Shown: one piece after another, positions 15,001 through 18,000 of the stretch | How the letters are laid out: each line of letters starts with the position of its first letter | Numbering within the stretch: position 1 is the first letter of the stretch | Assembly: GCA_964527555.1 (NCBI GenBank) | Contig: CAZGOG010000008.1 | Coordinates: 1-58,298, forward strand | Origin: an uncultured Planctomycetia bacterium | GTDB taxonomy: Bacteria > Omnitrophota > Gorgyraeia > Tantalellales > Tantalellaceae | Reading direction: 5' to 3' | Length of the DNA stretch: 58,298 nt | Made by a program: the position numbers

Positions 15001-18000
15001 GCTTGCAGGGCGCTCCATTAAAGACCTGGAAAAGGCGCGTTCCACCGGCAAAGAAAAGACGCTGCCCCTCGCCTATGACACAGCGTTTAGCACGGTGACA
15101 AAAATCCTCAAAAAGAACGGGCTTGCCATATACCAATCGGACAAGGAAAAAGGTTACATCGTAGCCATAGGATTCCCACAGCAGGTTAATACAACGCGTG
15201 TCGGGATTTTCTTTGAATCCCCGGCCCCTGACAAAACCCGGATAACCTTAAGTTCATTAAGCAGTACCGCTTTAGTAAAAGCTGAAACGATAATTTTCAA
15301 AGAATTAGAAAAGTAACACCTGCTAAAAATCATGAAACAAGCAATCGATATCAAGGTAGGTAATCTTTTAATTATCGACGGGAAAATTTATAAAGTCGAA
15401 AGCGCAGAGACAAAAGGTGCCGCTAAAGCGCATAAGACAGTCAATATAAAGATGCGTAGTATCCTCGATAATAAATATATGGAACACACCTTTCATCAAG
15501 AGGAAAAAATCGAGGAGGCGGACCTTACCAATCGTAAAGCCATATATTCTTATAAAGATGGCAGTAACTTATATTTCCTGGATGAAGAAAACTATGAGAC
15601 CTACAGCGTCAGCAAAGACATAATCGGAAAGAAAGAGGTTTTTCTTAAGGAAGAAGCAAAATATACCGCAGTTATCTATGAGGGTAAAGTGATAGATTTA
15701 ATATTTCCGGAACGCATTCGCCTGAAAGTAACAACCGCACCTCCCGGTCTGCGGCAGCATGATACGGCCACGACCGCTAAGGAGGTTACGCTAGAAAACG
15801 GCGTGAAGATAGACGTGCCTCAATTTGTCGAGGAAGGCAACACTGTCGAAGTAGATTCAAATACCGGTAAGTATATTGACCGTGTGCAGTAAGCCCATCA
15901 CCTAAAACGCATAGTTCCATTTATCCGCTCTATATTTATTATCTACAAGGTTTTTTAATTCCTTTAGATCATCTTTACCGGGGATCCATCTACCTTCAGT
16001 GGCAGAGAAAGTCTCTTTTATCAGATGTTCGAGTTCTTCTCTTGAAATTGATATATTCGCAAGAAAATCTTTATGAGACCGGCCGTTTCTATACTCCGGT
16101 TCTTTCGAAGGATGTTTAAGGTAACGCGGAACTTTGTCTAAATCAAAAGAGATAAGAAAAGTCCCGTGATGAAGGAAGAATTTTTTTTTACGCGCCTGGG
16201 CGTTCCCGGATATTTTCTTCTTGCTAAGCGCAAGGTCGCATATCGGAAAAAAGTTTACGTCATGCCCTTCTTTGCGTAAACTATCTGCAAGTCTCTGAAG
16301 TATACTTTGGTAAGAAGTGCGTATATCGCGATATTCTCCAGCGCTGTCATAAGAAAGAATAGCGGAGTAGTTAATGCATCCAGGCCCCTGAAGAACTGAT
16401 CCCCCGCCAGAGATACGCCTTATAATTTTAATTCCGTCCCGCCTGCATGCTTCAATAAAACAATCCTCGGAAACTTTACCTGAACGGCCCACCACCACTA
16501 AATATTCCTTGCTGCTCCAGAAATGCAACACTTCCCCTATTTCTCCAGACTCAGCTTTATTCAAAATAAGTTCATCGAAAGCGATCAACTCTTCCGGCGA
16601 GTTTATATCACACTCCACTATCTTCATATATATAAACTTTTTCTATTAATCAGTCATATATTTTTTAAACCAGCGGCTAAATAAAAATAAAAGCCATATC
16701 TTACAAGCTAAATCCTTCTTTTTAAAACCTTTTATTTGACTATGCAAAAGAAACAACCATAACTTCTTAATATACTGGGGGTTAAATAGTTCGCTGATAA
16801 TACTACTCTTATCAAACAGTTCTGCTTCCACTAAACTTTTAAGATCGCATTTTAACCATCTTTCAAGCGGAATTTCAAAGCCCATCTTGGGTCGGTTTAA
16901 AATACTGGAAGGTAAGTTCCTTGACATAGCTTTCTTAAATATATATTTTCCGGATAAGCCTTTTGCTTTAAGTTGAGAAGGCACTGTAGCTACATATTGC
17001 ATAAATGTGTGGTCTAAAATAGGAGTCCTTACCTCTAAAGAGTTCGCCATGCCGGCCCTCTCCGCCTTTGTCAACATTTCGTCACATAAAGAGGTTTTTA
17101 TATCAAGGTATTGCAGTTTTGATAAATAATCCGGACTTTTGCAGTTTTTAAAAATCGTCCTGAAGTTATCTTTTGTACTGTACCCTTTTATTTTTTCCGT
17201 TAATGCATGAGAGTAAAGATAAGCTCTTTCATCCTCTCTAAATATCGATATGTTTTTGAAATGCAAATCAAATAAAGGTATAAATAATTCGTCTAATTTA
17301 TTCTTAATTTTCATTGCCCATATATTTTCATAGCTGTTAGTCATCCTACTTGATACGCTTCTAGCGGCGTTCTTCAGAAAATCCGGAGTTCGCACCTGCA
17401 CTTTTGCCATGGCATTACAATACATATACCCAGTATATCCCGCGAAATTTTCATCCCCACCGTCACCGGATAATGCTACTTTCACGTTTTTCCGCGCCAT
17501 TTTAGACACATAATATGTCGGTATAGATGAAGAGTCTCCAAACGGCTCATCATAGAACCATATCAGCTTATCCAATATATCAAGTGCGCTTGGTTCTACA
17601 ATATACTCATGGTGTTCTGTTGAGTATCTTTCCGATATGAGCCTGGCATATTTAAGTTCATCATAACTTTTATCAGAAAATCCTATTGAATTAGTTATTA
17701 CGGGGCTATCCTGCAGCTGACTCATAAGGCTGACGATACTCGAGGAATCAATGCCGCCGCTTAAAAATGCACCTAATGTCACATCACTGATAAGCCTTAG
17801 CCTGACTGATTCCTTAAGTCTTGCGTAAATGTTATCGGATATCTGGTCTTCTGTTTCAGATGTTGTTTCTGAAAAATCTATGTCCCAATACTGCTTGATC
17901 GCAAATTTATCTTTATTGCAAAGCAAATAATGACCCGCCGGGAGCTTCTTTATATCTTTAAACATAGTCTTTGGGGCGGGCACATACATAAGCGTAAGAT

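What a model noticed while it worked through the whole genome (the two positions that open the first line are those of the whole stretch)
15332..16627. Second EF-P with a proline-free G-S-A-K loop, sitting next to the lipoate ligase
Beside a canonical PGKG EF-P (C3), the genome has a paralogue whose tRNA-contact loop is K-G-[SA]-A-K-[AV]-H: normal length, lysine at the tip, but without the proline and glycines of lysine-type EF-Ps and unlike EfpL. I read it as a third EF-P class with its own activation, most boldly acylation of the S-x-K-A tip by the adjoining LplA-family ligase, as on the H protein (S-V-K-A). A new EF-P class or modification would add to ribosome-rescue biology.
Evidence so far: Ungapped alignment to solved EF-Ps puts AAKA on PGKG. 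Loop KG[SA]AK[AVT][HAQ] in 44 of 48 homologues, 49-75% identical overall. 14 of 54 family genomes; the LplA gene is within two genes in 13 of 13 relatives. No co-occurrence with deoxyhypusine synthase; no EpmA/EarP row in the tables.
(Added by a program. Inside this text positions count along the whole contig: contig position 1 is position 1 of the stretch shown here. "Call 12" and the like, gene names such as g00115 and contig names such as C1 are that model's own, and its searches are not shown. The text may have been shortened before it was handed on; [...] marks where a part breaks off. The agent that wrote the report below was given it as the finding of a first reader that could run no searches.)

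Follow-up and report, generated by a model that had tools for sequence, protein, structure and literature searches.

The report
Unnamed spare EF-P clade beyond EfpL
This gene is a second copy of the ribosome helper EF-P from an unnamed branch found in several bacterial phyla, almost always beside an ordinary EF-P; it has changed the parts known to matter for proline stalls, so it likely helps at other stalls, and the neighbouring lipoate ligase is probably just a neighbour.

Summary
The paralogue is real: window 15332-15892 encodes a three-domain EF-P with loop K-G-A-A-K-A-H (this copy is G-A-A-K, not G-S-A-K), Lys32 on E. coli Lys34, beside a PGKG EF-P elsewhere in the genome. It belongs to a wider clade (IQ-TREE 99/98 with both loops removed; no EfpL inside) spanning Omnitrophota, Acidobacteriota, Elusimicrobiota and WOR-3, found beside another EF-P in 34 of 35 genomes checked. 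Members lack Pro32 and the E-site G-D-T loop, keep Y183/R186, and carry Lys or Gln at the tip. In this family it diverges as slowly as the housekeeping copy, yet was lost repeatedly. The lipoylation idea is not supported: the ligase sits in a lipA-gcv cluster, keeps the same neighbours where the paralogue is missing, and is not adjacent outside this family; about a quarter of members have no tip lysine. Best reading: an auxiliary E-site rescue factor with shifted specificity and no dedicated modifier (inferred, untested). Probable members are listed as plain 'EF-P' in a published table, including Cupriavidus necator H16, a direct test bed. No earlier finding of this scan matched.

The parts
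15332..15892 (+). EF-P paralogue (186 aa), member of the Gly-loop accessory clade
15413..15436 (+). Domain I loop K28-G-A-A-K32-A-H-K35; tip Lys32 at 15425-15427 = E. coli Lys34; A30/A31 replace Pro32/Gly33
15527..15532 (+). T66-N67, at E. coli 68-69; no acidic residue where E. coli has the tRNA D-loop contact Asp69
15746..15778 (+). Domain III loop G-L-R-Q-H-D-T-A-T-T-A replacing the G-D-T E-site-codon loop
15872..15883 (+). Y181-I-D-R184 = E. coli Y183/R186, kept in 252 of 258 clade members
   Evidence: role as tRNA/16S anchors is recalled
14849..15316 (+). Co-oriented upstream lipoprotein-like gene (DUF3568-like lead; probable start near 14912); present also where the paralogue is missing
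14849..14878 (+). Sigma-70-like site TTGACT-18-TATAAT (11 of 12) ahead of the lipoprotein-paralogue pair; site count in the region equals chance (8 vs 7.8)
15902..16627 (-). Short lipoate-protein ligase (241 aa, catalytic domain only), last gene of the lipA-gcv run; neighbour, not partner
18673..22968 (-). gcvT-gcvH-gcvPA-gcvPB; GcvH (21458-21841) is the likely ligase substrate
24136..24999 (-). Lipoyl synthase lipA (matched stretch), same strand as gcv and the ligase

Best explanation
The gene encodes a second, dispensable EF-P of a separate glycine-loop clade that likely binds the ribosomal E site like EF-P and likely acts as an auxiliary rescue factor at stalls other than the usual polyproline ones, probably without a dedicated modifying enzyme. 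Shown: fold, loop register, separate clade, accessory status, slow divergence, repeated loss from one chromosomal site, absence of a travelling partner gene. Inferred: it docks between P and E sites through the acidic domain II (uL1) and Y181/R184; because it lacks Pro32/Gly33, the G-D-T codon loop and (in the Omnitrophota core) the acid at 68-69, it would not be tuned to tRNA-Pro and would hold other P-site tRNAs or stall motifs, as EfpL does in part; Lys/Gln exchange at the tip suggests the tip works by direct contact and not through a lysine-linked arm.
For: Clade: 36 of 37 pre-assigned rows form one branch at 99/98 with both loops cut out; the 8 EfpL rows lie outside; FastTree of 152 rows agrees (56 rows, 96). 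Below cut-off for EfpL/YeiP and the TIGR00038 efp equivalog, above for the general EF-P model. Second EF-P of another type in 34 of 35 genomes checked. pN 0.179 / pS 0.81 against 0.167 / 0.80 for the housekeeping copy over 91 genome pairs; identities correlate, rho 0.53. At least 10 changes on the host tree with the gene at one site. Pro32 in 0 of 258; G[DN][TS] in 5 of 258 against 102 of 182 other EF-Ps; Y183+R186 in 252 of 258; domain II net charge about -6; acid at 68/69 in 2 of 48 core rows against 53 of 53 housekeeping copies. E. coli P32S, P32G, G33A, G33S and K34Q are inactive on polyproline (PMC6544042). No shared neighbour in more than 9 of 80 metagenome loci; EpmA below cut-off, DHS missing in 10 of 15.
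Against: No functional or expression data. Substitution data come from E. coli EF-P and may not carry over to a co-adapted loop. The E-site codon has only a small effect on EF-P binding (PMC11514478), so loss of G-D-T need not shift specificity, and 80 of 182 other EF-Ps lack it too. The acid at 68/69 is kept in 162 of 210 non-core members and Gly33 in 128 of 210, so part of the argument holds only for the Omnitrophota core; equating 'acid at 68 or 69' with Asp69 is my inference. The tip is Lys in 48 of 48 core rows, which fits a modification there. The tree did not recover EfpL as one group, so deep branching is weak. Lack of a neighbouring modifier does not exclude a shared one elsewhere; the housekeeping EF-P here has no known modifier either.
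Confidence: 0.5

Rival explanations
1. It is a brake: it binds the E site but cannot stimulate peptide-bond formation, competing with the housekeeping EF-P and slowing proline-rich translation under some condition.
For: It carries the very changes that inactivate E. coli EF-P (P32S/A, G33A, K34Q), a lysine tip without Pro32 is inhibitory in P. putida EF-P R32K (PMC6544042 passages), binding anchors are kept, and it is almost never alone (34 of 35).
Against: Tip and loop are conserved far more than a passive blocker would need (K32 47 of 48, G29 48 of 48, K35 47 of 48); core rows lack the D-loop acid that lengthens residence on tRNA-Pro complexes.
Confidence: 0.15
2. It is an ordinary polyproline rescuer activated by an unknown, non-adjacent lysine modification (shared with the housekeeping EF-P, or by a deoxyhypusine-synthase-like enzyme), giving a back-up under particular conditions.
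For: Tip Lys in 48 of 48 core rows; about half of bacterial EF-Ps have no known modifier (PMC11388002); this genome has a DHS-family gene at C20:825-1709.
Against: Tip Gln in 61 and Arg in 9 of 258; DHS missing in 10 of 15 carriers; no DHS-, LysRS/EpmA- or LplA-like neighbour in 80 loci; lysine modifications co-occur with Pro32.
Confidence: 0.2
3. One reading: the adjoining ligase octanoylates or lipoylates the tip lysine, as on GcvH.
For: Ligase within 1 kb in 14 of 14 whole family loci; S-A-K-A in 24 of 48 homologues resembles S-V-K-A; tip lysine sits on an exposed hairpin; the genome has LipB besides this ligase, so the ligase is not the only route to GcvH; some ligases prefer basic acceptors or accept short peptides (10.64898/2026.10.01.755906).
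Against: Same gene block without the paralogue in 14 of 19 loci; not adjacent outside the family; no ligase column tracks the paralogue (71 of 300 shuffles as extreme); the ligase keeps basic residues at the E. coli R47, K143 and K175 positions that meet acidic GcvH, GcvH is acidic around its lysine (-2; E-S-[VT]-K-A in 10 of 10 loci) and the paralogue basic (+3) with Gly at -3; recognition depends on the folded lipoyl domain; the window copy lacks the Ser; Gln-tip members cannot be acylated there.
Confidence: 0.03
4. It has left translation and uses its KOW/OB folds to bind another nucleic acid or protein.
For: Domain I is less basic than in other EF-Ps (net -0.4 core, +1.2 rest, against +3.6); three known contact sites changed; neighbours vary.
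Against: Length, three-domain layout, acidic domain II and Y183/R186 are all kept.
Confidence: 0.08
5. It is a redundant copy on its way out.
For: Absent from 39 of 54 family genomes; the mHSR1 plasmid copy is frameshifted near codon 14; this genome's copy lacks the purine-rich ribosome-binding stretch seen in 13 of 13 relatives.
Against: pN equal to the housekeeping gene at pS about 0.8; open frames in all 14 whole family copies; no remnants in 19 loci without it; clade spans several phyla.
Confidence: 0.04

Closest known systems
EfpL (YeiP), Sieber et al. 2024, PMC11611912 (abstract; sections 6, 9, 11, 26; Supplementary Data 1 in part)
   Same: EF-P paralogue that always has another EF-P beside it; three domains; about 30% identity to the main EF-P; altered domain I loop; auxiliary role is the model for my reading.
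   Different: EfpL has a 9-residue loop, Arg tip and a proline three residues before it; this protein has a 7-residue loop, Lys tip, no proline, scores 108.8 against a cut-off of 216 and its clade holds none of 8 EfpL rows.
Lysine-type EF-P (E. coli EpmA type; B. subtilis YmfI type; unmodified PGKGP type)
   Same: Fold, loop length, lysine at the tip position, Y183/R186.
   Different: No Pro32, no Gly33/Gly35 in the core rows, no G-D-T loop, no acid at 68/69 in the core; never found as the only EF-P except in one 88%-complete genome.
Unnamed rows of Sieber Supplementary Data 1: Occallatibacter riparius WP_260794004.1 (AGAAKMSG), Cupriavidus necator H16 WP_010810548.1 and Paraburkholderia dokdonensis WP_129564291.1 (AGGGQQGS), P. 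hospita WP_090837752.1 (GGGQQGS)
   Same: Second or third EF-P with the clade's loop; the P. hospita mHSR1 plasmid copy with that loop falls inside the clade.
   Different: Listed as plain 'EF-P', not treated as a group in the sections read; membership of these four accessions rests on the loop alone, as I could not fetch their sequences.
Clade-specific EF-P families of Brewer and Wagner 2024, PMC11388002 (sections 5, 6; supplement part 1 of 3)
   Same: Notes 15 EF-P families, among them unknown-modification families in Acidobacteria ('glycine type', Family 5) and Planctomycetota, and 49 genomes with two unknown-type EF-Ps.
   Different: Omnitrophota not mentioned in the main text; no loop sequences seen. 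Family 5 may be the acidobacterial EfpL (TPTARGGQT) or part of this clade; I could not tell.
LplA-GcvH lipoylation (E. coli LplA; Kumpel et al. 2026, 10.64898/2026.10.01.755906)
   Same: The window ligase is 25% identical to E. coli LplA over the catalytic domain, keeps the basic GcvH-facing residues and lies in a lipA-gcv cluster.
   Different: Lacks the C-terminal domain; below all NCBIfam cut-offs; no sign of a second substrate.

Membership tests
EF-P superfamily | EFP_N + EFP + Elong-fact-P_C domains, no others | tested here: met
   NF001810 172.9 over 161
EF-P superfamily | Three-domain tRNA-like fold | tested here: met
   model pLDDT 87.6; Foldseek best hits EF-P, E 1.9e-18
EF-P superfamily | Binds the E site and stimulates peptide-bond formation | not testable with these tools
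   needs ribosome assays
Lysine-type (PGKG) EF-P | Lys at loop tip | tested here: met
   K32 on E. coli K34, no gap
Lysine-type (PGKG) EF-P | Pro at -2 and Gly at -1 of the tip | tested here: not met
   A30, A31; Pro32 in 0 of 258 clade rows
Lysine-type (PGKG) EF-P | efp equivalog TIGR00038 cut-off | tested here: not met
   170 against 185.8; four other members 169-185.3
Lysine-type (PGKG) EF-P | G-D-T loop in domain III | tested here: not met
   Q-H-D here; 5 of 258 in clade, 53 of 53 G[DN]T in family housekeeping copies
EpmA-type EF-P | epmA in the genome | tested here: not met
   best hit 220 against 286.9, in a 480-aa frame; genome 93% complete
EarP-type EF-P | Arg tip and earP | tested here: not met
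   Lys tip; no EarP match, but no control genome rang either
PGKGP unmodified EF-P | P-G-K-G-P loop | tested here: not met
EfpL | Loop longer than 7 residues with Arg tip and upstream Pro | tested here: not met
EfpL | Falls in the EfpL branch / passes its models | tested here: not met
   (EfpL itself split in my tree)
EfpL | [quoted passage not shown] | tested here: met
   34 of 35 genomes checked
Brewer-Wagner Family 5 (Acidobacteria glycine type) | At least 49% identity to its members | not testable with these tools
   member sequences not in the supplement text seen
Lipoyl-acceptor (GcvH / lipoyl domain) | Lipoyl-domain fold | tested here: not met
   only EF-P domains; listed fold hits are EF-P and IF5A
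Lipoyl-acceptor (GcvH / lipoyl domain) | Acidic surface and Glu at -3 around the lysine | tested here: not met
   net +3 and Gly at -3, against -2 and Glu in GcvH; importance of the -3 Glu is recalled
Lipoyl-acceptor (GcvH / lipoyl domain) | Modified by the ligase in vitro | not testable with these tools
   bench test

The most novel reading that the evidence does not exclude
A third, cross-phylum class of EF-P that has been re-aimed away from tRNA-Pro: an unmodified Lys/Gln-tipped E-site factor that rescues (or brakes) ribosomes at a different set of stalls, closer to the broad role of eIF5A, and that can be tested at once in Cupriavidus necator H16.
Probability: 0.3. Interest if true: 0.8.

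Novelty: new variant of a known kind. Interest (0 to 1): 0.55.

Why it matters
Recent reviews treat EfpL as the one EF-P paralogue (passages of PMC12856214 and PMC13602936). A second accessory clade, under selection as strong as the housekeeping factor but carrying the substitutions that kill E. coli EF-P, would show that the EF-P scaffold can be re-aimed, and gives natural variants to test which contacts set stall specificity. A probable Gln-tip member in a standard laboratory bacterium makes this directly testable. The lipoylation idea can be set aside cheaply.

Tried and rejected
Ligase-paralogue co-fold: no answer, not used either way. RNA runs: no RNA holder listed, not used either way. 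DRG/Obg-like TGS GTPase as partner: next to the gene on the P. hospita plasmid and in L156 only, no match in this genome or other loci; rejected as a general partner. aIF5A-like reading of G-S-A-K-A (resemblance recalled): it needs a 4-residue shift that the ungapped flanks forbid; rejected. DHS as dedicated modifier: 5 of 15; rejected. Upstream lipoprotein as partner: present without the paralogue, absent beside L013-L017; rejected. Pseudogene remnants in empty junctions: two 20-residue hits at E 0.21 and 0.96, not EF-P. Support for the 258-row clade in the re-rooted FastTree read 43 at that node and 99 one node up; labels may shift on re-rooting, so I rely. P0221, put in the group on its loop, fell outside. 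ValS PPP check failed to find the gene with my pattern; no conclusion. Paper search for Y183/R186/T146 found nothing. Earlier scan findings: nothing relevant.

Full report
Observation. Window 15332-15892 (+) encodes a 186-aa protein with all three EF-P domains. It aligns without a gap through domain I to solved EF-Ps, which puts K28-G29-A30-A31-K32-A33-H34-K35 on E. coli V30-K31-P32-G33-K34-G35-Q36-A37. The AlphaFold model (pLDDT 87.6) has strands 18-28 and 36-43 with seven residues between them and matches EF-P best. A KPGKG EF-P lies at C3:51147-51701, 33% identical. The loop pattern KG[SA]AK[AVT][HAQ] is in 44 of 48 homologues; named ones are Candidatus Omnitrophota, and a locus from Candidatus Tantalella remota (PVC group, Omnitrophota) carries the same gene block. 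The window's own loop is G-A-A-K-A; S-A-K-A is in 24 of 48. The ligase gene 15902-16627 (-) ends 9 nt from the paralogue's stop.

The ligase is a neighbour. It closes a same-strand run lipA (24136-24999), glycosyltransferase, gcvT, gcvH, gcvPA, gcvPB, amidotransferase, ligase; in relatives gcvPB usually abuts it. It is in 47 of 54 family genomes, the paralogue in 15 of 54. I looked at 30 of the 48 ligase matches as loci: 19 come from genomes without the paralogue, and in 14 of these the upstream lipoprotein gene faces the ligase (12 directly, 2 with a short unrelated frame between); 3 end at contig edges and 2 have another order. No EF-P remnant was found in the 19. In the 14 whole loci with the paralogue the ligase is within 1 kb, with 0 to 1 gene between, once on the same strand. 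Among 401 class genomes 13 passed E 1e-45 and 11 are clade members by loop (G176 and G355 are not); the 7 outside the family have no ligase within 1.5 kb, and in 4 of 5 tested an LplA/B-family gene lies elsewhere. In 80 metagenome loci of the acidobacterial branch (430 kb) there was no LplA-, DHS- or LysRS-like gene and no real neighbour in more than 9 loci. Ligases from genomes with (11) and without (19) the paralogue are equally alike (0.557, 0.551, 0.553) and no column separates them better than 71 of 300 shuffles. The ligase keeps basic residues at the places of E. coli R47, K143 and K175 (R48, K148, R180; R140 is Ala with invariant R146-K147 beside it), which Kumpel et al. (10.64898/2026.10.01.755906; abstract, introduction part 1, discussion) describe as meeting acidic GcvH; they conclude that recognition rests on the folded acceptor and its charge, not on the local sequence. 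GcvH here is -2 around its lysine and the paralogue +3. For the other side: the genome also has LipB, some ligases prefer basic acceptors, and short peptides can be modified. I put lipoylation at about 3%.

A wider clade. Profile searches reach proteins named from Omnitrophota, Blastocatellia, Terriglobia and WOR-3, loci from Elusimicrobiota and Thermoanaerobaculia and a Paraburkholderia hospita plasmid. They share G-x-[GA]-[KQ] in the loop, F-P at 127-128, K-x-x-x-L-E-N-G and P-Q-F. With both variable loops cut out, IQ-TREE (81 rows) joins 36 of 37 rows assigned beforehand at 99/98; the 8 EfpL and 36 other rows are outside; EfpL itself splits, so deeper order is not resolved. A FastTree of 453 rows gives a 258-row clade used for counts (its node support is unreliable). 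These rows are a search-biased sample (two scans used patterns with Lys or Lys/Gln at the tip). The tip is K 187, Q 61, R 9, M 1; 100 rows have the canonical length and 158 one extra residue; Pro32 is in none, though 35 have a proline elsewhere in the loop segment. The clade is patchy: 11 of 401 class genomes, 12 of 301 Acidobacteriota (15 passed, 3 were TPGN-type), 3 of 151 in the Elusimicrobiota sample. A second EF-P of another type was found in 34 of 35 carriers checked (15 family, 6 of 7 class, 11 Acidobacteriota, G432, G433); the exception G313 is 88% complete; G703, G741 and G862 were not checked.

History and selection. On a host tree of 53 family genomes (aminopeptidase + housekeeping EF-P) presence needs at least 10 changes (5 forced by starred branches; shuffled mean 13.3), yet the gene is always in the same block, which reads best as an ancestral gene lost many times (inference; some absences may be assembly gaps, for example G050). 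Over 91 pairs of 14 genomes uncorrected pN is 0.179 for the paralogue and 0.167 for the housekeeping gene at pS about 0.8. So it is dispensable for many lineages but held tightly where kept.

Mechanism. [quoted passage not shown] In the 48 core rows (at least 55% identical to the window protein) Pro32 and Gly33 are in 0, an acid at 68/69 in 2 and G[DN][TS] in 1, against 53 of 53 for the last two in the family's housekeeping copies; Y183+R186 are in 47 of 48 and domain II averages -5.9. The role of Y183/R186 as tRNA and 16S contacts is recalled; my search for it found nothing. In the other 210 rows the acid is kept in 162 and Gly33 in 128. Hence: generic docking kept, proline-tuned contacts changed. 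I infer an auxiliary E-site factor for other stalls (0.5), then back-up rescuer with an unknown shared modification (0.2), brake (0.15), non-ribosomal role (0.08), decay (0.04), lipoylation (0.03). EpmA is below cut-off, EarP was not found but no control rang, DHS is in 5 of 15 carriers and 6 of 39 others.

What is known. Sieber et al. (PMC11611912) define EfpL by a longer loop with Arg; not met. In their Supplementary Data 1 (parts 1 and 81 of 97 read, the rest searched by term; file marked cut) GSAK, GTGK, GSAQ and Omnitroph occur 0 times; four accessions with this clade's type of loop are listed as plain EF-P: O. riparius (third copy), C. necator H16, P. dokdonensis and P. hospita (second copies beside EarP). 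Their membership rests on the loop and on the P. hospita plasmid copy in my tree. Brewer and Wagner (PMC11388002; sections 5, 6, passages, supplement part 1 of 3 and term search) report 15 families, several of unknown type, including an acidobacterial 'glycine type'; I could not see its sequences, so overlap is open. Passages of two 2026 reviews and one 2026 paper name only EfpL as paralogue (PMC12856214, PMC13602936, PMC12931083). Searches listed no paper on this clade; the library lacks most subscription journals, and figures and alignments in supplements were not seen.

Verdict. New variant of a known kind; interest 0.55, higher if re-aimed specificity is shown.

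Noticed in passing
window 16646-18547 (-): An asparagine-synthase-like amidotransferase (633 aa) lies between gcvPB and the ligase here, whereas relatives mostly have gcvPB next to the ligase; a GT2 glycosyltransferase (23256-24050) lies between lipA and gcvT. Both look inserted into the lipA-gcv run.
   Followed up: partly
window 15297-15334 (+): The paralogue here has no purine-rich ribosome-binding stretch, while 13 of 13 relatives do; possibly lower expression or coupling to the upstream gene 15 nt away.
   Followed up: no
L151:4965-6747 (P. hospita plasmid NZ_CP024940.1) and L156: The clade's efp is followed by an Obg/YchF-related GTPase-like gene in these two loci (85% identical to each other); the plasmid efp copy has a frameshift near codon 14.
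   Followed up: partly
G000 C20:825-1709 (L103): Deoxyhypusine-synthase-family gene, patchy in the family (11 of 54).
   Followed up: partly
family housekeeping EF-Ps: Of 53 housekeeping loops, 4 are KPGKGPA (the unmodified type) and one each KPGMGGS and KPCKGGS; several Omnitrophota and Acidobacteriota main EF-Ps have TPGN loops.
   Followed up: no
window 14849-15316 (+): Conserved Omnitrophota lipoprotein-like gene with no Pfam hit; the Atlas gives DUF3568 on 13% of a look-alike cluster as a lead.
   Followed up: partly
L176, L198-L201, L211, L224, L229, L234: In 9 of 80 metagenome loci a small gene of about 160-185 aa, shared among them, lies near the clade's efp; not identified.
   Followed up: no
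G000 C3:25890-26462 (L152): LipB octanoyltransferase, so the genome has both LipB-LipA and a short LplA.
   Followed up: yes
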